Shown: positions 10,992 to 29,227 of the stretch, piece after piece | Layout of the letters: each line of letters begins with the position of its first letter | Numbering within the stretch: the first letter of the stretch is position 1 | From: an uncultured Pelagibacteraceae bacterium | GTDB taxonomy: Bacteria > Pseudomonadota > Alphaproteobacteria > Pelagibacterales > AG-422-B15 | Assembly: GCA_902611715.1 (NCBI GenBank) | Contig: CACMAQ010000002.1 | Coordinates: 714 to 64,713, forward strand | Reading direction: 5' to 3' | Length of the DNA stretch: 64,000 bases | Notes under the pieces: model-generated | What the model was told of the DNA's origin: nothing | Databases searched by the model: none | The model's input: the letters and a program-made list of their open reading frames with translations, nothing else | Program-made: the position numbers and the translations under genes

Positions 10992-12008
10992 ATGAATAAA
11001 TTTTTTAAAAAATCTGCAATTGGAATATTTTTAGCAGGTTTTGCAGTTATTTTTGCAGTTAGTTGTGACAGGAATCAGGAAGTAGCTGATTGTGGCACAA
11101 TTACTGTCGCAGAAATGAATTGGGCATCAGCTGAAATGTTTGCTCATGTAGATAAAATAGTATTAGAAAATGGGTATGGTTGTAATGTTGAACTTGTACC
11201 CGGCGATACTATGCCAACAGCAACATCAATGATGGAAAAAGGTGAGCCGGATGTAGCTCCTGAACTCTGGATTAATTCAGTTCGTATAGCTCTAGATAAT
11301 GCAGTAGGTGAGGGTCGTTTGCATTATGCAGCTGAGGTACTGTCTGACACTGGTGAAGAAGGATGGTGGATTCCTCAGTACATGGCTGATGCAAATCCTG
11401 ATATCCAAACGGTTTATGACGTTATAGAGCGCCCTGAACTTTTCCCTCATCCGGAAGGTGGAGATGGAGCAATTTATACATGTCCATCAGGCTGGAACTG
11501 TCAAATTAGTACCGGAAATCTCTTTAAAGCGTATGATATGGAAGCAAAAGGATGGAGACTAGTTGATCCTGGATCAGGTGGTGCATTAGCTGGTTCTATC
11601 GGTGAAGCATATAATAAAGAAGAGGGATGGTTTGGATACTATTGGGCTCCCACAGCAGTTCTTGGCAAATATCCACTTAAGAAACTAAGCTTTGGTGTTG
11701 AACACAGTAAAGAAGAGTGGGACACTTGTACTTCTCAAGACGGATGTGCAGATCCAAAACCTAACGCATGGGTTGTTTCTGAAGTATACACTGTTGTAAC
11801 TGATAACTTTAAAAATAGTTCTGATCTTGGAATGGAATACATTTCAAAGAGAGCACTTCCAAACAGCACTGTTAATGCTTTATTAGCTTGGAAAGATGAC
11901 AATCAAGCATCTGGCGAAGACACAGCTATACATTTTCTGAAAAACTATACAGAATGGCACAGCTGGGTTGACGGTAATGCGAAAGCTAAAATTGAAGCAG
12001 CGTTATAA
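10992..12008 (+). CDS. proX: Glycine betaine/proline-betaine ABC transporter substrate-binding lipoprotein
   Basis: Signal peptide with lipobox AVSC and a ProX/OpuAC-like fold, sitting directly upstream of proW and proV. Confidence 0.8.
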   Translation: MNKFFKKSAIGIFLAGFAVIFAVSCDRNQEVADCGTITVAEMNWASAEMFAHVDKIVLENGYGCNVELVPGDTMPTATSMMEKGEPDVAPELWINSVRIALDNAVGEGRLHYAAEVLSDTGEEGWWIPQYMADANPDIQTVYDVIERPELFPHPEGGDGAIYTCPSGWNCQISTGNLFKAYDMEAKGWRLVDPGSGGALAGSIGEAYNKEEGWFGYYWAPTAVLGKYPLKKLSFGVEHSKEEWDTCTSQDGCADPKPNAWVVSEVYTVVTDNFKNSSDLGMEYISKRALPNSTVNALLAWKDDNQASGEDTAIHFLKNYTEWHSWVDGNAKAKIEAAL

Positions 12009-12024
12009 TTAAAAAAATAATATT

Positions 12025-12048
12025 GCGGACTATAGAAATATAGTCCGC
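12025..12048 (+). promoter_or_regulatory. Intercistronic RNA hairpin between proX and proW
   Basis: GCGGACTATA-GAAA-TATAGTCCGC: perfect 10-bp stem with a GAAA tetraloop, no following T-run, 8 nt before the proW ATG. Confidence 0.55.
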
Positions 12049-12056
12049 ATATCTAT

Positions 12057-12953
12057 ATGAATTTTACCGAATTTTTTATTTCATTTCCTGAAATGAGTAA
12101 GGAGAGTCTTCGCCTATTTAAGAAGTCTCTTGATGGCGCTTACCGAAACTTTTCACGTGAATATGGCGATACAATTGAAGCGGTTTTTGATCCAGTGCTT
12201 TATTTCTTAGTATGGTTTGAAAGAATACTACAAAATTCTCCATGGCCTGTCGTAATAATCGTTTTCTTATTATTGATCTATTATGGAAGTAGAAGCATCG
12301 CTCTAACTATTTCATCTTTAATTGCTTTTTTATTAATTGGATATTTTGGAATGTGGGATGATACGATGTCCACAGTCAGTATTATTGGTGTTTGCACACT
12401 AATGTCTATCGGCCTAGGTATACCAATTGGCATATTAATGTCAGGATCTGATAGGGCGAGAGCCGCAATTACTCCAATTTTAGATGTTATGCAAACGATG
12501 CCAAGTTTTGTGTATCTCATTCCAGTTGTTATGTTATTGGGTATTGGTAAAATTCCTGGTTTACTTGCAGTTATAATCTATGCAATCCCGCCAATAATTC
12601 GACTTACTGATCTTGGTATTAGAGAAGTTAATAAAGAAGTTTTAGAAGCCGCAGATGCATTTGGTGCAAATAGAACTCAAAAATTATTTAGAGTACAGCT
12701 TCCATTAGCTTTACCAACAATTTTCGCTGGTATTAATCAAACAATAATGATGGCACTTGCAATGGTAGTTATTGCTTCAATGATTGGGGTTAAGGGATTG
12801 GGGCAACCAGTCTTAAAAGCCATCACCAATCAATATTTTACAATGGGCCTTCTCAATGGTTTGGCTATTGTAGCTTTGGCGATCATATTTGACAGGGTTT
12901 CTCAGTCATTTGGCAAAAGAATGCAGCAATATAGGGCTGGCGCAAATGAGTGA
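12057..12953 (+). CDS. proW: Glycine betaine ABC transporter permease
   Basis: Multi-TM BPD-type permease positioned between proX and proV. Confidence 0.85.
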   Translation: MNFTEFFISFPEMSKESLRLFKKSLDGAYRNFSREYGDTIEAVFDPVLYFLVWFERILQNSPWPVVIIVFLLLIYYGSRSIALTISSLIAFLLIGYFGMWDDTMSTVSIIGVCTLMSIGLGIPIGILMSGSDRARAAITPILDVMQTMPSFVYLIPVVMLLGIGKIPGLLAVIIYAIPPIIRLTDLGIREVNKEVLEAADAFGANRTQKLFRVQLPLALPTIFAGINQTIMMALAMVVIASMIGVKGLGQPVLKAITNQYFTMGLLNGLAIVALAIIFDRVSQSFGKRMQQYRAGANE

Positions 12954-13971
12954 GATAAAGATTAAGATAGAAAATTTGTATAAAATTTTTGGATCAAGAC
13001 CAAGAGAGTACACAGACATAGTTAGAGATGGTGTTGATAAAGACGAGTTATTATCAAAATATAATCATGTTCTTGGGTTGGATAATATTTCTCTAGATAT
13101 CAAGGAGCATTCAATACAAGTTGTAATGGGATTATCAGGGTCAGGAAAATCTACTTTGATAAGACACATTAATAGATTGATTGAGCCAACCGAGGGAACG
13201 GTCACAGTTGATGGAGAGGATATTACTAAACTTAATAAAATGGATCTTCTAGAGTTTAGAAGAAATAAAACAGGGATGGTTTTTCAACGCTTTGCACTAT
13301 TTCCTCATCAAAATATATTAGACAATGTCCAGTTTGGATTGAGCATAAAAAATCTAGATAAGTCAGACTCTATAGAAAGAGCAATGTACTGGATCGAAAA
13401 AGTTGGTTTAACCGGTTTTGAAAATAAATTCCCAAATCAATTGTCAGGAGGAATGCAGCAAAGAGTAGGTTTAGCTAGGGCGTTAGCTACTGATCCAGAT
13501 ATATTGCTAATGGACGAAGCCTTTAGTGCGCTTGATCCATTAATAAGAACTGATATGCAGGACCAATTACTGGACTTACAAAAGAATTTAAATAAAACAA
13601 TTATGTTCATAACTCATGACCTCGATGAGGCACTAAAATTAGGCGACCGAATAGCTATACTCAATGGCGGAAAACTTGTTCAAGATGGAAATGCAGAGGA
13701 AATTCTTTTAAAACCCGCTGATCAATATGTGGCCAATTTTGTTAAGGATGTTAATCGTATAAAGGTTTTAAAAATCAAGACAATTCTTGACCAAGGAGGT
13801 GAACGAGCAAATTCTAATCCAACTGTAAACGTAAATGATAGTATTGAAAATTGCTTGCCGGCAATACTTGAAAGTCAATCCGGTCTTAACGTAATTGATG
13901 AGAAAAACAATTTTGTTGGCTCAGTATCAAAAAACAAAATTATAGATATTTTGCAAAAATCTAAGGATTAA
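12946..13971 (+). CDS. proV: Glycine betaine ABC transporter ATP-binding protein with C-terminal CBS-like region
   Basis: Walker A GLSGSGKST, signature LSGGMQQRV, Walker B ILLMDEA. Start placed at ATG 12946 (8-nt overlap with proW) rather than the track start at 12889. Confidence 0.9.
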   Translation: MSEIKIKIENLYKIFGSRPREYTDIVRDGVDKDELLSKYNHVLGLDNISLDIKEHSIQVVMGLSGSGKSTLIRHINRLIEPTEGTVTVDGEDITKLNKMDLLEFRRNKTGMVFQRFALFPHQNILDNVQFGLSIKNLDKSDSIERAMYWIEKVGLTGFENKFPNQLSGGMQQRVGLARALATDPDILLMDEAFSALDPLIRTDMQDQLLDLQKNLNKTIMFITHDLDEALKLGDRIAILNGGKLVQDGNAEEILLKPADQYVANFVKDVNRIKVLKIKTILDQGGERANSNPTVNVNDSIENCLPAILESQSGLNVIDEKNNFVGSVSKNKIIDILQKSKD

Positions 13972-13986
13972 TTCTACTAAATTTTT

Positions 13987-16395
13987 TTATTGCCTTAAAT
14001 TTTTACCGGTTTGGTCATAACAAGCATTATCAACAATTGAGGCATTATAAAACTCTCCATTTATTTCAACTTGCAAAACTTCTTTGGATTTTAATAAATC
14101 ATTGTTCAAGTATGCAAAAGCAATACTTTTTTGCACATAGTGGCCGAAGCCTCCAGATGTTACATATCCGATACATACTTCATTCTGCATAACAGCCTCA
14201 TTGCTAGTCACATCTATGTTGTCAGTTTCAATTACCAAGGAAAATAATCTGTGATTGCTATCATCTTTAACTGCAGCGTCTTTACCAATAAAATCTTTAT
14301 CCCAATTTATAAATGCAGAAAGGCCAGTTTCTTTTGGAGTATAGTCAGGTCTAAAATCTAGTGTCCATGCGCCCCAATTTTTTTCTAGTCTCATAGACAT
14401 CAAAGCTCTTCCGCCAAAAGGTTTAATGTTGAATTCTTCTCCTGCATCCTCAATAGCCTCATAAAGCTTGATTTGATAGTGTGGAGCTACATATATTTCA
14501 TATCCCAATTCTCCAGTAAATGACAACCGGTTGACTAATGCAGGAACACCAGCAACAAACATTTGTCTAGAATCTCTAAATTTAAATGACTCATTAGAAA
14601 CATCTTCTCTTACCAATAATTGCAGTAAATTTCTAGACTTTGGGCCAGAAATAGCAAGGCCGTGATAATCATCAGATCTGTTTTTATAAATGACCTCATA
14701 TTGATCTAGATGTTGTTCAAACCATCGTCGATGCATTTCCTGAGCGGCACCAGATCCATAAACCATAAAATGATTTTCACTAATACACGAAACTGTAAGG
14801 TCCCCATATAATTTACCTTTTTTAGATAGCATTGGACTTAGTGCTATGCGTCCAACTTTAGGTATTCTACCTGCCAAAATATAATCCAAAAATTTTCTTG
14901 AGTCTTTTCCCTTAAATTCATGTTTAGAAAAATTAGCAATTTCTGTTACTCCAACGTTTTCTCTTACATTTTTTACTTCATTTGAAACATAGTTATGGGA
15001 TCGAGAGCGCTTGATAGTTGGTTCTTCGTAAGCATCATCAGGATTATCAGCAAACCATAGAACATTTTCGAGTCCAAAGCTGTCACCCATAACTGCTCCC
15101 ATGTTAACGAAGCGATCATATAAAGCTGTAGTTTTTTGTTTCCTTCCTTTTGGCAAAGTCTCATTTGGAAATGTCATAATAAATCTTCGTTCATAATTTT
15201 CAGATGATTTAATTGTTCCATAATGTGGAGATGCATAATCACCAAACCGTGCAACATCCATCGCCCAAACATCTATGGAAGGTTCACCATCAATAATCCA
15301 TTCTGCAATACATTTGCCAACACCTCCTCCTTGACAGAACCCGGCCATAACACCGACTGCTACCCAATAATTTCTCATACCTGGAACTGGTCCAATGAGA
15401 GGATTTCCATCAGGACCAAATGTAAAAGGGCCGTTAACAATATTTTTAATTCCTGCTTTTTCCAAAGCTGGCATTCTCTCAAAACCAATGACTAATCGAT
15501 CTTGAATATTTTCTAATTTTGGTTCCAACAGTTCATGTCCAAAATCTAATGGGGTTCCCTGAACTTTCCAAGGAGTAGACTTATGTTCATATGTGCCAAG
15601 CAACATGCCTTGTCCTTCTTGTCTAAAATAGATATTACCATCAAAATCAGTTCCAACTGGTAGCCTTGTTCCCTTAGGCATCGCTGCTATTTCTGGAATT
15701 GTATCAGTGATTAAATAATGATGCTCCATTGGCTGTACAGGCAAATTTAATCCAGCAAGTTTACTGACCTCTCTCGCCCAAAGTCCTGCAGCATTAATTA
15801 CAATTTCTGTATGAATATTGCCCTTATCAGTAAACACATCCCAGGTTCCATCTTCTCTTTGCTTAGTGTCTTTAACCTCAGTATTTGTGTAATAGTTAGC
15901 GCCATGAACTTTTGCAGATTTTGCAAATGCATATGTGACACCTGATGGATCTACTTCTCCATCGATCGGATCCCACAAAGCTGAAATATATTTATTGGGA
16001 TCGATAAGAGGATTTTTTTTTGCAACCTCCTCTAATGAGATAAACTCTTGATCAAGACCCATATATCTGGCTTTTGTTCTTTCTCTTTTAAGATAATCAG
16101 ACCAAACTTCATTAGAGGCTAAATAAAACCCTCCACTTGGTTTAAAGCCAACTGAATGACCTGAAGTCTCTTCAATTTCCTTGTACAAGTTTATTGTATA
16201 TGCCATCAGTCTGGATATGTTTGGATCTGAAGAAATGACATGAACGTTTCCTGCGGCATGCCATGAGGATCCTGCTGTTAATTCTTTTCGCTCAAGGAGA
16301 ACGCAGTCCTTCACCCCAAACTTTGCTAAATGGAAAAGAATAGAGCAACCTACAACTCCCCCGCCAATAACAACAACTTTAGCATGAGTTTGCAT
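13987..16395 (-). CDS. dmgdh: Dimethylglycine (or sarcosine) dehydrogenase: FAD oxidoreductase fused to a GcvT-like folate-binding domain
   Basis: VVVIGGGVVG dinucleotide fold, SSWHAAG (covalent-FAD His region), C-terminal aminomethyltransferase-like domain. 802 aa. Confidence 0.85.
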   Translation of the reverse strand: MQTHAKVVVIGGGVVGCSILFHLAKFGVKDCVLLERKELTAGSSWHAAGNVHVISSDPNISRLMAYTINLYKEIEETSGHSVGFKPSGGFYLASNEVWSDYLKRERTKARYMGLDQEFISLEEVAKKNPLIDPNKYISALWDPIDGEVDPSGVTYAFAKSAKVHGANYYTNTEVKDTKQREDGTWDVFTDKGNIHTEIVINAAGLWAREVSKLAGLNLPVQPMEHHYLITDTIPEIAAMPKGTRLPVGTDFDGNIYFRQEGQGMLLGTYEHKSTPWKVQGTPLDFGHELLEPKLENIQDRLVIGFERMPALEKAGIKNIVNGPFTFGPDGNPLIGPVPGMRNYWVAVGVMAGFCQGGGVGKCIAEWIIDGEPSIDVWAMDVARFGDYASPHYGTIKSSENYERRFIMTFPNETLPKGRKQKTTALYDRFVNMGAVMGDSFGLENVLWFADNPDDAYEEPTIKRSRSHNYVSNEVKNVRENVGVTEIANFSKHEFKGKDSRKFLDYILAGRIPKVGRIALSPMLSKKGKLYGDLTVSCISENHFMVYGSGAAQEMHRRWFEQHLDQYEVIYKNRSDDYHGLAISGPKSRNLLQLLVREDVSNESFKFRDSRQMFVAGVPALVNRLSFTGELGYEIYVAPHYQIKLYEAIEDAGEEFNIKPFGGRALMSMRLEKNWGAWTLDFRPDYTPKETGLSAFINWDKDFIGKDAAVKDDSNHRLFSLVIETDNIDVTSNEAVMQNEVCIGYVTSGGFGHYVQKSIAFAYLNNDLLKSKEVLQVEINGEFYNASIVDNACYDQTGKNLRQ

Positions 16396-16397
16396 TC

Positions 16398-17438
16398 TTA
16401 AGGTGTGAATTCTTTATTTACCTGCTTAAGAGTTTCGTCTGTTCCATGGTGAAAATGTTTTCTCATGTCCGGCATATATTTCATCGAAATTGGTTTTTTA
16501 CCAACTGCAACTGACATTTCTCTCACGTGATGTGCTTCGGCGCCACAACAAATTCCAATAAAGTTGATATTTTTTTCCATACAGTCTGCAGCAAATTTAG
16601 CCATTTCAAAACGATTACAAAAAAGATTATCCAAGGCTACAGGAAATGCATTATTTCCAGGAATACAATCACATCCATCATCAGAAATATTTAAAAAACC
16701 AGGTTCCTTTTCTGTTGTTCGATAAGGCACTGGCAATCCAGCAACATGGCAAGATACTTTATCTCTTACTTTTTCTAGAAGTTTCATAGTCATATCTGGC
16801 CCTCTATAACAGTTTAAACCAACGACATTTGCACCCAAGTCTTCCATCATTTTACATGCATCTTCAGGTGTATGTCCTTCTCTTGTCTTATCTCCCCTGG
16901 GTATCGCAAAATTTGTAACTGCAATCATGCCTTCATCTTTGATTGCTTTTAGAGCAATTTTCATTTCCTCAGTCCAATTAATTGTCTCAGCGACAATAAA
17001 ATCAACTCCCGCTTCCTTTGCCCACGCCACTTGTTCCTCATACATTTTCTGACATTGAATAAGAGATTGTTTATCATTTGGATCATAAATATTTGTATTT
17101 GCTACATCTCCACAAACCATAAGATCTAAATCTTTATATTCATTAGCTGCATCTTTTGCAATTTGAAGAGCATTTTTCTGTAAAGACTCTAATAAATGCT
17201 CTTTCCCAATTATTCTTAATTTTTCTCTATGGCCATAATAAGTGAAAGCTTGGACAACATCAGATCCTGCTCTTATAAATTCTCTATGTAATTGAGTAAC
17301 AACTTCTGGGTGCTCTAAAACAACTTCAGGAACAAATCCTCCTGCGGATAAGTAACCTCTTCGTTCCATGGCGAATAAATAACCTTCAGCACAAATGATT
17401 GGTCCCTCATTTAATCTCGTTATCAGATCTTTTTTCAT
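16398..17438 (-). CDS. bhmT: Betaine-homocysteine S-methyltransferase (homocysteine S-methyltransferase domain)
   Basis: Pfam02574-like TIM barrel with zinc Cys residues (GLNC ... GICCG). Lies 2 nt upstream of dmgdh. AGGAG 8 nt upstream of the ATG. Confidence 0.8.
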   Translation of the reverse strand: MKKDLITRLNEGPIICAEGYLFAMERRGYLSAGGFVPEVVLEHPEVVTQLHREFIRAGSDVVQAFTYYGHREKLRIIGKEHLLESLQKNALQIAKDAANEYKDLDLMVCGDVANTNIYDPNDKQSLIQCQKMYEEQVAWAKEAGVDFIVAETINWTEEMKIALKAIKDEGMIAVTNFAIPRGDKTREGHTPEDACKMMEDLGANVVGLNCYRGPDMTMKLLEKVRDKVSCHVAGLPVPYRTTEKEPGFLNISDDGCDCIPGNNAFPVALDNLFCNRFEMAKFAADCMEKNINFIGICCGAEAHHVREMSVAVGKKPISMKYMPDMRKHFHHGTDETLKQVNKEFTP

Positions 17439-17549
17439 GAATGCACTCCTAATTTATTCAAACAATAAATAAAAAATTATACCTAATTTAATATTCTGTC
17501 GAATTAAAAAAATGACAAGGCTATTCTTTTTTGGAATGAAAAAGCATTT

Positions 17550-18920
17550 CTAATTTGAAAACAAGCGCTCATCAAGCGGATAAGTAGAAATCGTTTCGTA
17601 ACCATTATTTGTTACGACACCCTGATCCTCAAGCTTGACCATGTGGTCCCCATTAACTTCACCCACCAAAGCCTCGACACAAAGAGTCAGTCCTGGTTCC
17701 AGAACAGCGTCAAAGGCATTTTTAACCAAACGGTCTGGGTAGGCGATCAATGGCCATTCGTCACACATCCCGACACCATGCATAGGTGATGAATACTTGA
17801 GCGCCTGATACTTGTCCTGCAACACGTGCAAAGAATGAGTTAAGTCTTCCATGTGGAGGCCGGGCTTGAGAAGCCTTGTGTTATAGCGAATGTGTTCTAC
17901 TGCCTCTGCATAACTCTCGCGCATATTAGCTGGCGCTAAACTATCTCCAATCCACCAGGTACGACTGAGATCTGCACAAATCCCATAGGGGCCGATCAAA
18001 TCAGTATCAAAAGCAAGAATTTCGTTCTCAGATATGATCCTTGGCCCACATTCTTGAAACCATGGGTTGGTGCGTGGCCCTGAAGTAAGAAGTCTTGTCT
18101 CAATCCACTCGCCACCTCTTTTAATATTTTCTGCATGAAGTACCGCCCAAACATCATCCTCTGTCACACCACCTTTTGGAATTTCTTCGCGTGCAAACTC
18201 CTCCATAACTGCCATCGAGCGTTCACAAGAATAAATAGAACAGCGCATTGCTCGTAATTCGTGCTCGGTTTTGATAGCTCGTGCACGTTCTGTCACTTCC
18301 TCACCGTCACAGTACTCAAGCCCTGCTCGACGGACCGCATCTAAACCTGCAGGCTGAATTTTGTCTATACCGACTTGTGTACAACCTGGAGCGTGAGTGG
18401 CAATTAAGTCTAGTACCTCAGCTGCGAAAGCGTCAGCTGCTGGCCCAATCCGGTCACCACGGGCGAAGTAAAACATGTCCGCACCTGAGCGGCTCTCCCG
18501 AACAAGTGGATTGTATTGGGCGAGGAATGGTGCGTTTTTATAATCCCAGAGTACCATATACCCATCAGCACAAAGCAAGCACGCCCGGAACGGATTGTGG
18601 GTGTTCCACAACTGCATATTTGTCGTGTCAGTTGCATAACGAATATTAAGGGGATCAAACATCAATAAGCCCCCATAACCCCTGGCTACAATTGCATCAG
18701 TCAAGCGTTTGTGTCTGGCTTTGCGCATCTCAGTCAGATCTGGCAATATAAGCCCTGCATCTTGCCATTCAGCATAGGCTAATGCGGTTGGGCCAATTTC
18801 GACACGATCGCCATCATTGATTGTTCCATCGCCCAGATGCACCCCCTGGCTTGGGTCTATCTTATGATTATCGCTGTAGTAATTATTTATATTTGGTAAT
18901 ATTTTACGATTTATCTTCAT
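17550..18920 (-). CDS. dddP: M24-family (creatinase/prolidase fold) protein, DddP-like DMSP lyase
   Basis: 456 aa. D305/D307/D317/H381/E416/E431 and D387 are spaced like the DddP metal ligands and catalytic Asp as I recall them. Much higher G+C than all neighbours. Confidence 0.65.
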   Translation of the reverse strand: MKINRKILPNINNYYSDNHKIDPSQGVHLGDGTINDGDRVEIGPTALAYAEWQDAGLILPDLTEMRKARHKRLTDAIVARGYGGLLMFDPLNIRYATDTTNMQLWNTHNPFRACLLCADGYMVLWDYKNAPFLAQYNPLVRESRSGADMFYFARGDRIGPAADAFAAEVLDLIATHAPGCTQVGIDKIQPAGLDAVRRAGLEYCDGEEVTERARAIKTEHELRAMRCSIYSCERSMAVMEEFAREEIPKGGVTEDDVWAVLHAENIKRGGEWIETRLLTSGPRTNPWFQECGPRIISENEILAFDTDLIGPYGICADLSRTWWIGDSLAPANMRESYAEAVEHIRYNTRLLKPGLHMEDLTHSLHVLQDKYQALKYSSPMHGVGMCDEWPLIAYPDRLVKNAFDAVLEPGLTLCVEALVGEVNGDHMVKLEDQGVVTNNGYETISTYPLDERLFSN

Positions 18921-18928
18921 TTTATTAA

Positions 18929-20071
18929 TTAAGGATTAATTCTATTCAAATAATTTAATCTACCTACGATCTCATCCCTATCAATATAATATCCTTGGAG
19001 GTGTCTATTACCTGAATTGGTATCGTATTCTTTTCTGCCATGCAAGACTCTTCTGTTATTAAAGCTAAAAATATCTCCAGCTTCTAATCTGAAATTGATT
19101 TCAAACATAGGGTCATGTAGCAATGAAAGAAGTTTACGATATGCTTCATAGAAGCTATCCATAACTTCAGGACTGCAATCCATTATTCCCATATAAGCAA
19201 CGCTGAACCGTATATCATTAAAATCATTGTTGTGATCTAGAGTAAATATGGGTTTATGCATTACTCTAATTGTGTTTGCGGTGTAATCTCTATTTACAAA
19301 TTTTACAGGTGTATCAAGAAGAATCTTGAAATATTCAGTAAAATTTTCTTTCATATAGCTTGCAACTTTAAATCCATCTAACGCAACTGATTCACCACCG
19401 GTTGCATCGTTTATTAAACAATGAAGGAACTGGTAGCCAGGAGCAATTTCATAATATGGTAAGTCGATGTGATTTCTTAGAGCTGCAGCTGTATATGCTG
19501 AATTATTTGGATTAGGAATGTCGATTACTTCAAATGGTGTTTTAAAAAAAGTTTCTCTATGATGACTTATATTAGATAGAACATCAAAACCTGACTCTTT
19601 TTCAGTGGGTGCATTTTTTACAATTGAAATGCCCTTATAGTGAAGTTGTTCTAACCATTTTTTTATTCCTTCATCTCCACTAATAATTTCTTGATAATCT
19701 ATTTGAATATCTTCAAAATTTGATTGCATACTATTATCCCACAAAAAATAAGGTGAACTATATTTTTTCTTACTTTTCATCGTGTAACAGTTATGTCGAA
19801 GCCATTCGACGTCATAGTGACTTATATGGCCTCCTTCACTCCACTCAATCTCCAACTGCCCTTTATCATTTATTGTAAACGCTTTTGGGTAAATATTTTC
19901 TGAAACATTTAGCAAGTTAAAGGTTCTCTCCCTTGCAGTAGGGTGAACTTCTGATGGACAATTATCCCTTAACCATAAAAAATTAAATTTACTCTGCTCA
20001 CCATCACTCCAATCAATTAGAATCGATTTACCATTCTTTTTTAATGATGATATTGATGGATTCTCATTCAT
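18929..20071 (-). CDS. Gamma-butyrobetaine dioxygenase-like Fe(II)/2-oxoglutarate oxygenase
   Basis: N-terminal DUF971-like domain (IDWSDGEQSKFNFLWLRDNC), HxD facial triad (NHID), distal His (RRVLHGR). 380 aa. Confidence 0.7.
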   Translation of the reverse strand: MNENPSISSLKKNGKSILIDWSDGEQSKFNFLWLRDNCPSEVHPTARERTFNLLNVSENIYPKAFTINDKGQLEIEWSEGGHISHYDVEWLRHNCYTMKSKKKYSSPYFLWDNSMQSNFEDIQIDYQEIISGDEGIKKWLEQLHYKGISIVKNAPTEKESGFDVLSNISHHRETFFKTPFEVIDIPNPNNSAYTAAALRNHIDLPYYEIAPGYQFLHCLINDATGGESVALDGFKVASYMKENFTEYFKILLDTPVKFVNRDYTANTIRVMHKPIFTLDHNNDFNDIRFSVAYMGIMDCSPEVMDSFYEAYRKLLSLLHDPMFEINFRLEAGDIFSFNNRRVLHGRKEYDTNSGNRHLQGYYIDRDEIVGRLNYLNRINP

Positions 20072-20074
20072 ATC

Positions 20075-21049
20075 TTATTTAAATGTATTATATTTTCTGT
20101 CCCAATTCGGAAACTTACCTTTTTGATTCTTATTTAAAGTTTTCATAATTTCAATCAAAAACAAATCTCTTTGTTTTTCTAATTCTTTAATATTGAATTT
20201 TCCTGCTTGTTTTTTTGTTCCTGAAACCATTGCTTTTTTAAGTTTGTTGGTTAATTCAGGTGCTTTCAATTTTGTCCAAGGGAGTTTTAGTGCAGGACCA
20301 AATTGTTCCAGCATGTGTTTCATGCCAGTTTCTCCACCAGCTAAATGGAACGTTAAACAAACCCCCATAAAAGCCCATCTCAATCCAGGACCATAAACAA
20401 TTGCATCATCAACTTCATCCGTTGATGCTACCCCGTCATTTATAATATGCAAGGCTTCACGCCATAACGCTTCTTGTAGTCTGTCTGAAATATATCCTTC
20501 TATTTCTTTTTGAACAATAAGTGGTCGCATTCCAATATGTTCATATAATTTTTTTAATTTTTTAACACTTATATGACTAGTTTTCTTGCCAGCTACAATC
20601 TCTACTAGAGGTAATAAGTATACAGGATTAAATGGATGACCTATTAAAACTCTCTCAGGAAACTTGCAAGCCGATTGAATTTTTGATGGTAATAAGCCTG
20701 ACGAACTAGATGCGATTATAACTCTCTTATCAACTAAATTATCAATTTGTTTGAGTATATTTTTTTTAATCTTTTCGTTTTCTGGTGCATTCTCTTGAAC
20801 AAAAGTTGTATCCTTCAATGCACTAGGTAATTTTGAATAGACCTTAAGATTTCTTAATGAGGCATTTCTATTCAAACCGATTTTCTTTAAGCTTTTAAAA
20901 GCAGTTCGAACATTTATTTTTAGCTGCTCACGTGAAACACTATTAGGGTCATATGCTTTTACAGTATAACCTTTAGCTAGAAATCTTGCAGCCCAGCCTG
21001 CGCCAATTACTCCAGTACCCACAATAGTGATGACTTTATTTTGTTTCAA
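20075..21049 (-). CDS. 3-hydroxyacyl-CoA dehydrogenase family protein, L-carnitine dehydrogenase-like
   Basis: Rossmann [26 protein letters not shown] plus a 3HCDH C-terminal domain. ATGA overlap with the upstream BKACE gene. No fused thioesterase domain (324 aa). Confidence 0.65.
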
Positions 21050-21930
21050 ACTTTAAGCCCAAGTTTTTTTCTGGCTTCATCTGGCCCCATCACATTTGCA
21101 CCAAGATTATTAATTATTGTCGTCGCTTTTTCAACAAGTTGACCGTTTGAAGCGTATACACCTTTTTCAAGATATAGGTTGTCTTCAAGACCAACTCTAA
21201 CATTGCCCCCCAAAAGAACCGCTTGAGCAACCATCGGCATTTGATGAACCCCAATTCCAAAAGCTGCCCAGTTACTGCCCGATGGTAGCATGTCTACCAT
21301 GTTTTTCATTGAACTGGTATTAGCCGGTGCCCCATAGGGAATGCCAAGACAAATTTGAAATAGAGGAGGGCTGTCAAGCAATCCCTCATCGTACATTTGA
21401 TTTGCAAACCACATATGCCCTGTATCAAAAACTTCTAACTCCGGTTTTACGCCTAATTCTTGTATTCTTTTTGCACCAATTCTTAATTGTTCAGGAGTAC
21501 TAACATAAATCATGTTGCCATCACCAAAATTAAGAGTTCCACAATCAAGGGAACATATATCTGGTAATATTTCTTCAACGTGACTTAGTCGTTCAATCGC
21601 ATTAACAAAATCAGTATTAGGTCCGAACTTTAATAGATCATCCTCAGGTCCAATTTCTATATCACCGCCCATACCACTGGTAAGATTTATTATGACATTT
21701 GTGCCACTATCTTTTATGCGGCTCACAACCTCTTTATAAAGCTCATCGTCTCTTGATCCCTTTCCTGTATTTAAATCTCTGACATGGATATGCGCTATAG
21801 CAGCTCCAGCTGACGCTGCTTCAATTGCTGCATTAGCAATTTGCTCTGGCGTCACCGGTATGTTTGGATGTTTGTTGACTGTATCTCCTGATCCAGTAAC
21901 AGCACATGAAATAATGACGTCTCTGTTCAT
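21046..21930 (-). CDS. BKACE-family (DUF849) beta-keto acid cleavage enzyme, dehydrocarnitine cleavage candidate
   Basis: [12 protein letters not shown] ... AIAHIHVRD motif pattern typical of 3-keto-5-aminohexanoate cleavage enzyme relatives. 294 aa. Confidence 0.75.
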
Positions 21931-25404: not shown

Positions 25405-26499
25405 ATGAAGCTAGATTTTGACTCAAAAGAATTAAGAGTATTTGATAAAGAGGAAATTTTTAAAATACATCCCTTGTGGATACGGGAACGATCAACTGAA
25501 AAAGGGGAAGTTGATCAAAATTCTTTTCAAAGATTATATGATCCTGAAAAGATTGAGCCAGATTTGCAAATAAAGAATGCTCAGCTACTAGCAGACAACA
25601 AAATGCATGTAGAATTTTCTGATAACCATAGTGCAACTTATTGTTTAGATAAATTAATAACAGAAATTACAAGATCAAATGTCCTACCACCAAAGATTTA
25701 CTGGGATAAAAATGATGCTGAGTTAAAAAAATTTAGTTTTGCCTATGGAGCAAACGAAAGTCAGCAATTGTTAGAAATTTTAAAATTTTATCATCAGTAT
25801 GGTTACGTTGTAGTCGAAGATTTGCCAGCTAAGGATGGAGAAGTTATAAAATTTGCTGAAAAAATTGGATTTATTCGAGAAACTAATTTTGGCAAGCTAT
25901 TTAATGTGAGGTCACAAAAACAACCTAATGACTTGGCTTATACATCCATAGAATTAGAGTCGCATACTGATAATCCCTACAGAAAACCAGTACCATCAAT
26001 TCAATTTTTATTTTGTATTGAAAACAGTTGTAAAGGCGGAGACTCCACAGTTGTAGATGGTTTCAAAGTTGCAGAGGATCTAAAAAAAGAAAATCCACAA
26101 GCTTTTAATATTCTAGTAAACACTCTAATAAATTATAAATTTGAAGATAATGATGCTATTTTAGAAAAAACTGGAAAAATTATAAAATTAAGTGCTAGAG
26201 GAGAACTCAAACAAATAAAATATAGTAATAGATTAGACTTTGTATTTTACGATGAGCCAAAGGTTTTGGAAGAATTTTATGCTGCTAAAAGAGTTATGCA
26301 TCAAATGATCAATTCAGATAAATATATATTACAATTTCATTTAGAGCCTGGTAACTTATTAATTATGAATAATTACAGAACTTTACATGGAAGACGAAGC
26401 TACAATACATCTGAAGGAAGTCGGTGGCTTCAAGGGCTGTATATTGACCATGACTCTGCCGAAAGTAAATATAAACTCCTCTCCAAGGAAGTAGAATGA
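25405..26499 (+). CDS. Second BBOX/TauD-like Fe(II)/2-oxoglutarate dioxygenase, TmpA-like candidate
   Basis: HxD triad (SHTD) and distal His (YRTLHGR). 364 aa. ATGA overlap with the downstream HD-domain gene. Confidence 0.6.
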   Translation: MKLDFDSKELRVFDKEEIFKIHPLWIRERSTEKGEVDQNSFQRLYDPEKIEPDLQIKNAQLLADNKMHVEFSDNHSATYCLDKLITEITRSNVLPPKIYWDKNDAELKKFSFAYGANESQQLLEILKFYHQYGYVVVEDLPAKDGEVIKFAEKIGFIRETNFGKLFNVRSQKQPNDLAYTSIELESHTDNPYRKPVPSIQFLFCIENSCKGGDSTVVDGFKVAEDLKKENPQAFNILVNTLINYKFEDNDAILEKTGKIIKLSARGELKQIKYSNRLDFVFYDEPKVLEEFYAAKRVMHQMINSDKYILQFHLEPGNLLIMNNYRTLHGRRSYNTSEGSRWLQGLYIDHDSAESKYKLLSKEVE

Positions 26500-27047
26500 A
26501 GACAGTCAAGTTTACCGAAATGAAAAAAGGATCAAAAGAAGATTATGAACTTTTGGCTGAATATGAAAAAAACTACGTAAATGAACTTCCTGATCGAATA
26601 TTAGAATCATTAAAAAACTTAGATAATTCAGTGGACGGGTACCAAGTAACAAGACTTGAGCATTCTTTGCAATCAGCAACCAGAGCTGAAAAAGATGGGG
26701 CAGATGAAGAAATGATTGTTGCTACATTGTTGCATGATATAGGAGACAGTCTTGCTCCATACAATCACAGTCAGCTCATAGCTGCTGTTTTAAGACCGTA
26801 TGTTTCTGAAAAGGTTCATTGGATTATGTTGCATCATGGGCTTTTTCAAGAATATTATTATGCTCATCATTTAGGTAAAGATAGAAATTCACGAGATAAA
26901 TTTAAGGATCACCCATACTATCAAGATGCGGTCGACTTTTGTGAAAAGTGGGATCAAAAATCTTTTGATCCTAATTATGAGTCCTTCCCGTTAGATCATT
27001 TTGAACCAATGGTGAGAAGATTATTTTCTAAAGAGCCAAATTTTTAA
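26496..27047 (+). CDS. Small HD-domain protein, PhnZ/TmpB-like mixed-valent diiron oxygenase candidate
   Basis: 183 aa. H56 (LEHSLQ) and H80-D81 (LLHDIGD) lie 24 residues apart, followed by several His (H108, H113/114, H124/125) and D153. Translationally coupled to the dioxygenase. Confidence 0.6.
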   Translation: MKTVKFTEMKKGSKEDYELLAEYEKNYVNELPDRILESLKNLDNSVDGYQVTRLEHSLQSATRAEKDGADEEMIVATLLHDIGDSLAPYNHSQLIAAVLRPYVSEKVHWIMLHHGLFQEYYYAHHLGKDRNSRDKFKDHPYYQDAVDFCEKWDQKSFDPNYESFPLDHFEPMVRRLFSKEPNF

Positions 27048-29150: not shown

Positions 29151-29227
29151 GCGTCCGTAGCTCAACTGGATAGAGCATCAGACTTCGGATCTGAGGGTTG
29201 AGGGTTCGAATCCTTCCGGGCGCACCA
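29151..29227 (+). tRNA. tRNA-Arg (anticodon TCG)
   Basis: Full cloverleaf folded by hand: acceptor GCGTCCG/CGGGCGC, D stem GCTC/GAGC, anticodon stem TCAGA/TCTGA with loop CTTCGGA, T loop TTCGAAT, encoded CCA. Confidence 0.93.

What the first reader, a model, noticed from the sequence alone, without database searches (positions are those of the whole stretch)
17550..18920. GC-rich, apparently horizontally acquired DddP-like DMSP lyase inserted gene-precisely into the betaine/carnitine operon
Hand counts of G+C per 60-nt line show the contrast. Inside this gene: 36/60 at 18421-18480, 31/60 at 18781-18840, 29/60 at 17701-17760. Outside it: 20/60 in the adjacent BBOX-like gene (19021-19080) and 11/60 in the downstream spacer (17461-17520). 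This is the only place in the window where the ORF track throws long shadow ORFs on both strands (18281-18649 +, 18410-18658 -), which is typical of GC-rich DNA. The gene is nonetheless integrated at operon precision. Its ATG is 8 nt after the stop of the upstream BBOX-like gene, and its stop precedes a normal AT-rich bhmT promoter gap. The protein is an M24 creatinase/prolidase-fold enzyme. Residues D305, D307, D317, H381, E416, E431 and D387 sit at a constant +10 offset from the DddP metal ligands and catalytic Asp as I recall them from the roseobacter structures (D295/D297/D307/H371/E406/E421, D377). A foreign DMSP lyase wired into a streamlined genome's onium-compound operon would link DMS production to betaine and carnitine catabolism.
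Basis: partly seen in the sequence, partly recalled or inferred. Interest (0 to 1): 0.8.

Follow-up and report, generated by a model that had tools for sequence, protein, structure and literature searches.

The report
Roseobacter-type DMSP lyase gene in SAR11
A SAR11 (Pelagibacter) ocean bacterium carries a DMSP lyase gene (dddP, whose product should release the climate-active gas dimethyl sulfide) that it acquired from roseobacter-like bacteria and slotted exactly in front of its betaine-breakdown genes; the finding is real, but DddP in SAR11 has already been reported in surveys.

Summary
ORF 17550-18920 (-) has GC 0.472 and GC3 0.427, against a window gene mean GC3 of 0.241 ± 0.039. It is the strongest outlier of 55 ORFs, and all five hand counts are exact.

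The protein is a DddP by every sequence test available:
- NCBIfam equivalog score is 787.7 against a cutoff of 600.
- It is 64.5% identical, without gaps, to crystallised DddP.
- All six metal ligands plus the Tyr366 and Asp377 equivalents are present at the +10 offset.

The host is SAR11: eight Pelagibacteraceae single-cell genomes and five metagenome contigs share the same junctions, so this is not a chimera. Horizontal acquisition rests on four results:
- SAR11 DddP is monophyletic (199/200) and nested in a Rhodobacterales/SAR116 subclade.
- Synonymous changes run GC→AT 109 to 12.
- Natural empty sites lack exactly the gene.
- No mobile-element marks are present.

The acquisition is old. 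Synonymous divergence matches that of native bhmT and dmgdh, and dN/dS is 0.05-0.08. A ~7-kb block carrying dddP is 99% identical across SAR11 species whose flanks are 74-90% identical.

Two further points emerged. The donor subclade sits in an MttB-DMGDH betaine cluster. SAR11 also has a native, unannotated DddP-like paralogue next to bhmT-dmgdh.

DddP in Pelagibacter is already reported, and enzyme activity is untested.

The parts
17550..18920 (-). dddP: a 456-aa DddP-family M24 enzyme (predicted DMSP lyase), foreign in origin and partly ameliorated
   Evidence: NCBIfam NF043017 scores 787.7 bits against a cutoff of 600. PDB 4RZY matches at E 5e-201, 64.5% identical and ungapped. GC3 is 0.427 against a host mean of 0.241. 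dN/dS is 0.05-0.08.
18888..18890 (-). Codon 11 (ATA), at the position of the ancestral ATG start used in L008, L161, HIMB11, SAR116 and RlDddP. Its loss moved the start to 18918-18920 and added a 10-aa extension (MKINRKILPN).
   Evidence: Alignment of the 5' ends. This explains the constant +10 residue offset.
18921..18928 (-). 8-nt gap (TTAATAAA) between the GBBH-like stop and the dddP ATG. Co-transcription is implied but not shown.
17439..17549 (-). 111-nt AT-rich spacer (22.5% GC) between dddP and bhmT. The first ~45 nt is the tail that accompanies dddP; the rest is native bhmT upstream sequence.
   Evidence: The spacer is 98-99% identical across L001-L007.
17476..17503 (-). Conserved bhmT promoter-like box TTCGACAG-N13-GGTATAAT, also present (TTGACAG-N13-GGTAAT) in dddP-less empty sites
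   Evidence: Junction comparison of the window, L008, L087, L088, L089 and L090. Promoter function is inferred.
16398..17438 (-). bhmT-like homocysteine S-methyltransferase. It is native and is the constant downstream neighbour of dddP in SAR11.
   Evidence: PF02574. GC3 0.219. Adjacent to dddP in L001-L008 and L081-L085.
13987..16395 (-). Dimethylglycine-dehydrogenase-like gene (DAO + FAO_M + GcvT domains), native
   Evidence: 78% identical to other SAR11 copies and 63-64% to the DMGDH-like gene next to dddP in donors.
18929..20071 (-). Gamma-butyrobetaine-hydroxylase-like TauD-family dioxygenase, native. It is the upstream neighbour in the window lineage only.
   Evidence: PF02668 + PF06155. 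It scores below the cutoffs of the specific NCBIfam equivalogs. L008 has a Rieske oxygenase here instead.
20075..21930 (-). Carnitine-dehydrogenase-like gene (20075-21049) and BKACE (21046-21930), the upstream part of the same-strand gene string
13987..21049 (-). A ~7-kb block (CarnDH-GBBH-dddP-bhmT-dmgdh) that is 99.1-99.8% identical in nucleotides between SAR11 species whose flanks are 74-90% identical (L006). This indicates recent recombinational spread.
   Evidence: Per-gene identity table
10992..13971 (+). OpuA-type glycine-betaine ABC transporter (OpuAC binding protein, permease, ATPase), divergently adjacent. It is allelically variable among the SAR11 genomes.
   Evidence: Identity is 74-93% in L001, L004, L006 and L007 against 99% in L002, L003 and L005.

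Best explanation
This is a true DddP-family enzyme gene sitting in the core chromosome of a SAR11 (Pelagibacteraceae) bacterium. An ancestor of several SAR11 lineages acquired it once from a higher-GC alphaproteobacterium of a Rhodobacterales-dominated DddP subclade.

Only the ORF was retained, plus about 45 nt of 3' tail. It lies between the stop of an upstream onium-compound oxygenase gene and the native bhmT promoter region. No mobile-element signature remains.

Since arrival the gene has drifted towards SAR11's AT-rich codon usage without reaching it. It has stayed under strong purifying selection. In the window lineage it lost its original ATG and now starts 10 codons upstream, 8 nt after the GBBH-like gene.

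Homologous recombination of a ~7-kb block of flanking native genes now carries it between SAR11 species.

Inferred function: a binuclear-metal M24 active site binds the DMSP carboxylate, the Asp377 equivalent (D387) abstracts the C-alpha proton, and DMS plus acrylate are released. The gene is probably transcribed with the upstream carnitine/gamma-butyrobetaine genes, next to a betaine transporter and the bhmT-dmgdh demethylation genes.

Shown here: family membership, host, foreign origin, insertion anatomy, selection and mosaicism. Inferred: catalytic activity, substrate and co-transcription.
For: Family:
- NCBIfam DddP equivalog scores 787.7 bits against a cutoff of 600; the next model scores 35 bits.
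- The protein is 64.5% identical, without gaps, to RlDddP structures 4RZY/4S00/4S01. The D377N mutant position aligns with D387.
- The ligands D295, D297, D307, H371, E406 and E421, plus Y366 and D377 named in PMC4108388, are all conserved.

Host and authenticity:
- Eight Pelagibacteraceae SAG species representatives are 94-100% identical.
- Five metagenome contigs, including a GOS contig, have identical gene order.
- The window is core chromosome: ftsH, purA, aroC, nadA/B, coxA.

HGT:
- GC3 is 0.427 against 0.241 ± 0.039.
- SAR11 is monophyletic in 199/200 bootstraps, groups with P0004-6 in 200/200, and is nested among Rhodobacterales and SAR116.
- Polarised synonymous changes run 109 S→W against 12 W→S.
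- GC3 falls in steps: donors 0.58-0.76, L161 0.52, L165 0.49, SAR11 0.43.
- Empty sites L088, L089 and L090 share about 93% identical flanks with L008 but lack 1474 nt, which is dddP plus its spacer.

Age and selection:
- dS between the window and L008 is 0.54 for dddP, against 0.64 for bhmT and dmgdh. dN/dS is 0.05-0.08.

Spread: block identity of 99.1-99.8% against flanks of 74-90% in L006.

No flanking repeats, tRNA or integrase were found.
Against: - No biochemical or expression data exist for this protein or, as far as I could find, for any member of its 82-100% subclade. The nearest characterised or crystallised DddPs are about 64% identical.
- Reported DddP kinetics for DMSP are poor (Km 13.8 mM for RnDddP, quoted in PMC4108388), so DMSP as the physiological substrate is not beyond doubt.
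- The subclade's conserved neighbours in donors are betaine-demethylation genes, not sulfur or acrylate genes.
- I found no empty site for the window's own GBBH|bhmT junction. Gain versus precise loss in L088-L090 cannot be resolved.
- The tree is neighbour-joining on corrected p-distances, not maximum likelihood.
- The sister position of P0004/5 is weak (50/200).
Confidence: 0.75

Rival explanations
1. The enzyme's main physiological job is in catabolism of N-methylated onium compounds (betaines), and DMSP cleavage is a side activity. On this view the DddP-family M24 enzymes belong functionally to glycine-betaine, dimethylglycine or sarcosine pathways, as creatinase does.
For: - In 9 of 13 non-SAR11 subclade loci, dddP lies in an MttB-family → DMGDH-like → (GbdR-like AraC/DJ-1 regulator) → dddP string. 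This is seen in 0 of 59 canonical DddP loci.
- In SAR11 it always abuts bhmT-dmgdh.
- SAR11 also has a native DddP-like paralogue (35% identical, all catalytic residues kept) just downstream of bhmT-dmgdh, and a third type (48%) upstream of it.
- A parallel context argument was published for DddQ (bioRxiv 10.1101/161257).
- DddP has a high Km for DMSP (PMC4108388).
Against: - It passes the curated DddP equivalog model, and every residue proposed to bind and cleave DMSP is conserved.
- Characterised DddPs from several species do make DMS in vivo (Todd 2009 as cited in PMC4108388).
- A SAR116 strain up-regulates its dddP on DMSP (PMC4304780), although that protein may not belong to this subclade.
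- Co-location could simply reflect shared regulation or transport of osmolytes.
Confidence: 0.15
2. The direction of transfer is the reverse: the subclade arose in low-GC bacteria such as SAR11 and spread to roseobacters and SAR116.
For: The low-GC clade (SAR11, P0004-6) is a well-supported group (200/200). In an unrooted view it could be taken as sister to the rest of the subclade.
Against: - With the canonical DddP clade as outgroup, the low-GC group is nested several nodes inside Rhodobacterales-rich branches.
- GC3 of the SAR11 gene is far above host equilibrium, and synonymous changes are 9:1 towards AT. This is what a gene arriving from higher GC would show, not a native gene.
- Distribution in SAR11 is patchy, with empty sites.
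Confidence: 0.03
3. It is a native SAR11 gene whose high GC reflects amino-acid composition or expression level, not foreign origin.
For: GC1 and GC2 are also somewhat high (0.573 and 0.416). The highly expressed coxA has the second-highest GC3 in the window, 0.328.
Against: - The excess is largest at synonymous third positions (0.427 against 0.241, z about 4.7).
- The protein is 88-90% identical to Rhodobacterales proteins, whereas neighbouring native enzymes are about 64%.
- SAR11's own DddP-like paralogues have GC3 0.18-0.21.
- Closely related SAR11 loci lack the gene.
Confidence: 0.02
4. It is an assembly chimera or contamination that joined roseobacter DNA to a SAR11 contig.
For: None beyond the GC step itself.
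Against: The same junctions appear in eight independent single-cell genomes and five metagenome contigs from different projects. Both junction sequences are conserved at 98-99%. The gene is AT-shifted relative to every roseobacter copy.
Confidence: 0.01

Closest known systems
DddP DMSP lyases of the Roseobacter group with solved structures (Ruegeria lacuscaerulensis RlDddP, PDB 4RZY/4S00/4S01; Roseobacter denitrificans RdDddP, PDB 4B28)
   Same: Same M24 fold family and the same length apart from the N-terminal extension. The alignment is ungapped at 64.5% identity. The six metal ligands, Tyr366, Asp377 and Trp95 equivalents are identical.
   Different: - It belongs to a separate subclade. Members of that subclade are 82-100% identical to each other but only 61-65% identical to the canonical group.
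- The host is SAR11, not a roseobacter.
- It has a 10-aa N-terminal extension created by loss of the ancestral ATG.
- Its codon usage is AT-shifted.
- Activity is untested.
DddP of HIMB11, Ruegeria sp. MALMAid1280, Cognatiyoonia, Tropicibacter, Amaricoccus and SAR116 single-cell genomes (the donor-like subclade)
   Same: 88-90% amino-acid identity, and the same subclade in the tree. Also adjacent to a DMGDH-like gene.
   Different: - There, dddP lies downstream of MttB-DMGDH-(AraC regulator) and upstream of threonine-synthase-like, aminotransferase and Zn-ADH genes, with a long conserved 5' leader.
- SAR11 kept none of that. The gene sits upstream of the host's own bhmT-dmgdh.
- GC3 there is 0.58-0.76, against 0.43 in SAR11.
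DddK, the cupin DMSP lyase known from Pelagibacter HTCC1062 (Sun et al. 2016, as cited in PMC10686828 and PMC8520302)
   Same: Same predicted reaction (DMSP to DMS plus acrylate) in the same bacterial clade.
   Different: Unrelated fold (cupin versus M24). DddK is regarded as the typical SAR11 lyase; 99% of polar-ocean DddK sequences were from Pelagibacterales (PMC8520302). No dddK is seen in this window.
Native SAR11 'DddP-like' M24 protein (411 aa; e.g. L093:6141-7376; annotated 'M24 family metallopeptidase', Ca. Pelagibacter sp. FZCC0015)
   Same: Its best family match is DddP. All DddP metal ligands and the Tyr and Asp residues are invariant. It is also linked to bhmT-dmgdh.
   Different: - Only 35% identical.
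- Scores 347 bits, below the 600-bit DddP cutoff.
- Lacks about 30 N-terminal residues.
- Has host-like GC3 of 0.18-0.19.
- Lies downstream rather than upstream of the operon.
- Is absent from this window.
Creatinase / Xaa-Pro peptidase / ectoine hydrolase (other M24 'pita-bread' enzymes)
   Same: Shared Pfam Peptidase_M24 domain and a Creatinase_N-like N-domain.
   Different: Specific models score 35 bits or less against cutoffs of 575 or more. PDB prolidases match only at E about 3e-07.

Membership tests
DddP (dimethylsulfoniopropionate lyase, M24 family) | Full-length match to the curated equivalog model above its trusted cutoff | tested here: met
   NF043017 scores 787.7 bits against a cutoff of 600, covering residues 12-453 and model positions 1-442 of 443.
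DddP (dimethylsulfoniopropionate lyase, M24 family) | Six binuclear-metal ligands (Asp295, Asp297, Asp307, His371, Glu406, Glu421 in RdDddP/RlDddP numbering) | tested here: met
   D305, D307, D317, H381, E416 and E431 line up in an ungapped alignment. Residue roles are taken from PMC4108388.
DddP (dimethylsulfoniopropionate lyase, M24 family) | Proposed catalytic base Asp377 and Tyr366 lining the substrate tunnel | tested here: met
   D387 and Y376. The 4S01 D377N mutant residue aligns with D387. Both are invariant in alignment A1.
DddP (dimethylsulfoniopropionate lyase, M24 family) | Phylogenetic placement inside the DddP clade rather than with creatinases or prolidases | tested here: met
   All 120 listed best database hits are DddP-length M24 proteins, and where a specific name is given it is DddP. 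The NJ tree places it in a subclade of the Rhodobacterales DddP radiation. No characterised enzyme lies inside the subclade itself.
DddP (dimethylsulfoniopropionate lyase, M24 family) | Cleaves DMSP to DMS plus acrylate | not testable with these tools
   This needs heterologous expression and a GC or NMR assay. No paper I found reports activity for this subclade.
Creatinase / Xaa-Pro peptidase (other M24) | Match to family-specific models at or above cutoff | tested here: not met
   The only other NCBIfam hit is ectoine hydrolase at 35 bits against a cutoff of 575. Pfam Creatinase_N scores 21.4 against a cutoff of 22. PDB prolidases match at E 3e-07.
Horizontally acquired gene | Compositional deviation at synonymous sites | tested here: met
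   GC3 is 0.427 against 0.241 ± 0.039, the top of 55 ORFs. S→W changes outnumber W→S 109 to 12.
Horizontally acquired gene | Gene tree conflicts with organismal relationships | tested here: met
   SAR11 sequences are nested in a Rhodobacterales/SAR116 subclade, with SAR11 monophyly in 199/200 bootstraps. The protein is 88-90% identical to roseobacter copies, against about 64% for the neighbouring DMGDH.
Horizontally acquired gene | Presence/absence polymorphism with an identifiable empty site | tested here: met
   L088, L089 and L090 compared with L008 show 1474 nt replaced by 62-84 nt between flanks about 93% identical. None was found for the window's own GBBH|bhmT junction among 80 loci.
Mobile genetic element / genomic island | Integrase or transposase, flanking direct or inverted repeats, or tRNA target | tested here: not met
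   Only short, chance-level repeats were found. The nearest tRNA is at 29151. The neighbours are metabolic genes.

The most novel reading that the evidence does not exclude
DddP-family M24 enzymes are a regular, previously unrecognised component of glycine-betaine demethylation modules in marine Alphaproteobacteria. Three forms support this: the foreign dddP upstream of bhmT-dmgdh in some SAR11, a native low-GC DddP-like paralogue downstream of the same operon in many SAR11, and dddP inside a mobile MttB-DMGDH-GbdR-like cassette in roseobacters and SAR116.

This would mean one of two things. Either the family's primary substrate is a nitrogen onium compound, with DMSP lysis a side reaction. 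Or SAR11 holds a second, unannotated family of DMSP lyases. Either way, gene-based estimates of which bacteria make DMS would change.
Probability: 0.15. Interest if true: 0.7.

Novelty: new member of a known kind. Interest (0 to 1): 0.4.

Why it matters
SAR11 is the most abundant bacterial group in the surface ocean, and DMS from DMSP cleavage is the main natural sulfur flux to the atmosphere. Which SAR11 cells cleave DMSP, and with which enzyme, therefore feeds directly into gene-based DMS budgets.

This locus shows that a roseobacter-type DddP has been stably domesticated in several SAR11 species. It is under purifying selection and is being passed between species on a recombining block of native genes.

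The locus is also a clean natural example of how a streamlined genome takes up a single foreign ORF with almost no extra DNA.

The main fact, that some Pelagibacter carry DddP, is already published at survey level. The added value lies in the origin, the anatomy, and the link to betaine genes.

Tried and rejected
- **Mobile-element search.** I looked for flanking repeats, tRNAs and integrases around dddP and found nothing meaningful.
- **Consensus promoter and terminator scan.** It gave fewer promoter-like hits than shuffles, and one terminator-like hairpin inside the dddP 3' coding end. It was not informative. The conserved bhmT box was found by cross-locus comparison instead.
- **Microhomology at the insertion boundaries.** A TAAT occurs on both sides in L008, but in such AT-rich sequence this is not distinguishable from chance.
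- **Empty site for the window's own junction.** I looked for GBBH-like directly followed by bhmT and found none in 80 metagenome loci.
- **Shared 5' leader between SAR11 and donors.** None exists, so the upstream boundary of the transferred DNA is at the start codon.
- **Sun et al. 2016.** I tried to read it for any mention of SAR11 DddP, but the paper is not held.
- **Structure prediction.** I considered it and judged it unnecessary at 64.5% ungapped identity to crystal structures.
- **Rejected explanations.** Assembly chimera and native gene with odd composition are both rejected (see rivals).
Full report
**1. Observation**

The ORF at 17550-18920 on the minus strand encodes 456 aa. All five 60-nt G+C counts are exact.

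- Per-gene statistics over 55 ORFs give this gene GC 0.472 and GC3 0.427. The window mean GC3 is 0.241 with sd 0.039, and the next highest value is 0.328.
- The highest-GC gene-length sliding window in the whole 64 kb coincides with the ORF: 0.476 against 0.412 for the next best.
- The ATG lies 8 nt after the TAA of the upstream GBBH-like gene. A 111-nt spacer at 22.5% GC separates the stop from bhmT.
- The statement that this is the only place with long shadow ORFs needs narrowing. It is the only gene with one on each strand. Nine other shadow ORFs of at least 80 aa exist elsewhere, one of them longer.

**2. What the protein is**

- Pfam sees Peptidase_M24 plus a near-threshold Creatinase_N domain.
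- NCBIfam's curated equivalog for DddP matches end to end at 787.7 bits against a cutoff of 600. The only other hit scores 35 bits.
- Against the PDB, the best matches are the Ruegeria lacuscaerulensis DddP entries (E 5e-201) and the Roseobacter denitrificans DddP. The alignment is ungapped over 442 residues at 64.5% identity with a constant +10 offset.
- The RdDddP structure paper names Asp295, Asp297, Asp307, His371, Glu406 and Glu421 as the ligands of a binuclear metal site. It names Tyr366 and Asp377 as the candidate catalytic residues (PMC4108388). All map to identical residues here.
- The D377N mutant entry 4S01 differs from wild type exactly opposite D387.

Family membership is therefore met on every sequence criterion. 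Activity cannot be tested here.

**3. Host and authenticity**

A scan of one genome per species found the gene at 94-100% identity in eight Pelagibacteraceae single-cell genomes.

- Seven of them (L001-L007) have the window's exact gene order: BKACE, carnitine-DH-like, GBBH-like, dddP, bhmT, dmgdh. In each, dddP GC3 is 0.42-0.44 amid neighbours at 0.20-0.28.
- Five metagenome contigs from several projects repeat the arrangement.
- The rest of the window is core chromosome: ftsH, folP, glmM, purA, aroC, nadA/B, mnmA, coxA, ctaB, thrC.

A chimeric assembly is excluded.

**4. Foreign origin**

Outside SAR11, the nearest proteins (82-90%) are from Rhodobacterales (Ruegeria sp. MALMAid1280, HIMB11, Tropicibacter, Cognatiyoonia, Cognatishimia, Marinovum), Amaricoccus and SAR116 cells. 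The familiar roseobacter DddPs are only 61-65% identical.

- In a neighbour-joining tree rooted on canonical DddPs, the SAR11 sequences are monophyletic (199/200). They join three metagenome proteins from other low-GC contexts (200/200). That group is nested inside the Rhodobacterales-rich subclade.
- I polarised synonymous third positions with five donor-like sequences at codons whose amino acid is conserved. This gives 109 GC→AT against 12 AT→GC changes in the window gene.
- GC3 falls stepwise: 0.58-0.76 in donors, 0.52 in L161, 0.49 in L165, 0.43 in SAR11, against a host background of 0.24.

**5. Insertion anatomy**

A second SAR11 lineage (L008, DddP 94% identical) keeps dddP-bhmT-dmgdh. 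Upstream it has an OpuA-like transporter and a Rieske oxygenase instead of the carnitine genes.

- Metagenome loci L088, L089 and L090 share L008's flanks at about 93% identity but lack dddP. In them, 1474 nt are replaced by 62-84 nt.
- At base level, filled and empty sites share the Rieske 3' end. They also share a conserved box upstream of bhmT (TTGACAG-N13-GGTAAT; in the window at 17476-17503).
- Upstream of the ancestral ATG the low-GC hosts share nothing with each other or with donors. HIMB11, SAR116 and L015, by contrast, share a long leader.
- The retained foreign DNA is thus the ORF plus roughly 45 nt of tail.
- In the window lineage the ancestral ATG is now ATA (18888-18890), and the only usable start is 10 codons upstream.
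- No repeats, tRNA or integrase mark the site.
- I found no empty version of the window's own GBBH|bhmT junction. Gain versus precise loss in L088-L090 stays open.

**6. Age, selection and spread**

- Between the window and L008, dS is 0.54 for dddP and 0.64 for both bhmT and dmgdh. dN/dS is 0.05, 0.03 and 0.05 respectively. The gene has therefore been beside bhmT since before these lineages split, and it is maintained by selection.
- Among the seven window-type genomes, per-gene nucleotide identity reveals a mosaic. In L006 the flanks are 74-90% identical to the window, but carnitine-DH-like through dmgdh (13987-21049) is 99.1-99.8% identical.
- That pattern fits recent homologous recombination, or a gene-specific sweep, carrying the block between species.

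**7. Likely mechanism**

By analogy with the crystallised enzymes, the binuclear metal site binds the DMSP carboxylate, D387 abstracts the C-alpha proton, and DMS and acrylate are released (PMC4108388). This step is inferred.

The 8-nt gap suggests transcription with the upstream genes. bhmT keeps its own upstream box. The surrounding 20 kb is an onium-compound region. It holds:
- a choline-dehydrogenase-like GMC oxidoreductase and an OpuA-type betaine transporter;
- bhmT and dmgdh;
- two TauD/GBBH-like dioxygenases, a carnitine-DH-like gene and BKACE;
- an aldehyde dehydrogenase and an acyl-CoA ligase.

**8. A wider pattern**

In nine of thirteen non-SAR11 subclade loci, and in the abundant metagenome cluster P0007, dddP lies in an MttB-family methyltransferase, DMGDH-like, (AraC/DJ-1 regulator), dddP string. 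None of 59 canonical DddP loci shows this.

- The cassette's DMGDH is 89-96% identical across Rhodobacterales, Amaricoccus and SAR116, so the cassette itself appears to move.
- Many SAR11 loci carry a native 411-aa M24 gene just downstream of bhmT-dmgdh (GC3 0.18-0.19). Its best family match is DddP (347 bits, below cutoff). It keeps every DddP ligand plus the Tyr and Asp residues. It is annotated only as an M24 peptidase.
- A third type (48% identical) sits upstream of bhmT in L152.
- A similar context argument led others to propose a betaine-related primary role for DddQ (bioRxiv 10.1101/161257).

This supports a minority reading in which DddP-family enzymes belong to betaine catabolism. Shared regulation or transport of osmolytes is a simpler alternative.

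**9. Novelty**

DddP in Pelagibacterales is already reported:
- 27 of 135 complete Pelagibacter genomes, by KEGG K16953 (bioRxiv 10.64898/2026.04.03.716430);
- Pelagibacterales dddP in Southern Ocean data, with HGT inferred for DddP generally (PMC13280387);
- Pelagibacterales listed among DddP carriers in polar oceans (PMC8520302).

In the papers I could search, I found no description of the following:
- the roseobacter-subclade origin;
- the bhmT-proximal insertion with empty sites;
- the start-codon shift;
- the inter-species block;
- the betaine-cassette synteny;
- the native DddP-like paralogue.

The finding is a well-supported new member of a known kind, of moderate interest.

Noticed in passing
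L093:6141-7376 (+), L119:11258-12493 (+), and equivalents in L092, L094, L095, L100, L104, L106, L120, L122, L127, L132, L145: A native low-GC SAR11 'DddP-like' M24 gene (411 aa, GC3 0.18-0.19) lies downstream of bhmT-dmgdh. Its best family hit is DddP at 347 bits, below the 600 cutoff. It is 35% identical to the window protein and lacks about 30 N-terminal residues, yet all DddP metal ligands and the Tyr366/Asp377 equivalents are invariant. It is widespread and annotated only as an M24 peptidase. It is absent from the window. Published KEGG-based counts of 'DddP in SAR11' may or may not include it.
   Followed up: partly
L009, L010, L012-L017, L019, L166 (about 5 kb upstream to 4 kb downstream of dddP): Subclade-specific cassette: MttB-family methyltransferase, DMGDH-like, (AraC/DJ-1-PfpI regulator), dddP, threonine-synthase-like, aminotransferase, Zn-ADH. 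The cassette DMGDH is 89-96% identical between Rhodobacterales, Amaricoccus and SAR116, so the whole cassette appears horizontally mobile. It is absent from all 59 canonical DddP loci.
   Followed up: partly
window 13987-21049 compared with L006 (and L001, L004, L007): Mosaic identity: the carnitine-DH-like to dmgdh block is 99.1-99.8% identical between SAR11 species whose adjacent genes are 74-90% identical. This indicates recent recombination or a gene-specific sweep.
   Followed up: yes
window 10992-13971 (+): The OpuA-type betaine ABC transporter next to the block is an allelic hot spot. The permease and binding protein are only 76-86% identical in L001, L004 and L007, while genes on both sides are 97-100% identical.
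   Followed up: no
L161:1601-3378: A sister dddP (92% identical, GC3 0.52) sits in a different low-GC host context, between a GST gene and a glyoxalase-family gene. The glyoxalase gene (GC3 0.36) overlaps the dddP stop. Flanking genes have GC3 0.20-0.24. This is a separate insertion site, possibly in another lineage; the host was not identified.
   Followed up: partly
L152:72-650 (+): A partial DddP-family gene, 48% identical to the window protein and with host-like GC3 of 0.21, lies directly upstream of a bhmT-dmgdh pair (81% and 71%). This is a third DddP-family type in the same position.
   Followed up: no
window 25405-26499 (+) and 18929-20071 (-): There are two paralogous TauD/GBBH-like dioxygenases. 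The second scores best to the 2-trimethylaminoethylphosphonate dioxygenase TmpA model (348 bits against a cutoff of 400) and is followed by an HD-domain gene (26496-27047). This resembles a TmpA/TmpB-like pair for trimethyl-AEP breakdown.
   Followed up: no
L020:690-2024: The dddP of a Pseudomonadota MAG (83-85% identical) is split into two ORFs by an in-frame stop. It is either a pseudogene or a sequencing error.
   Followed up: no
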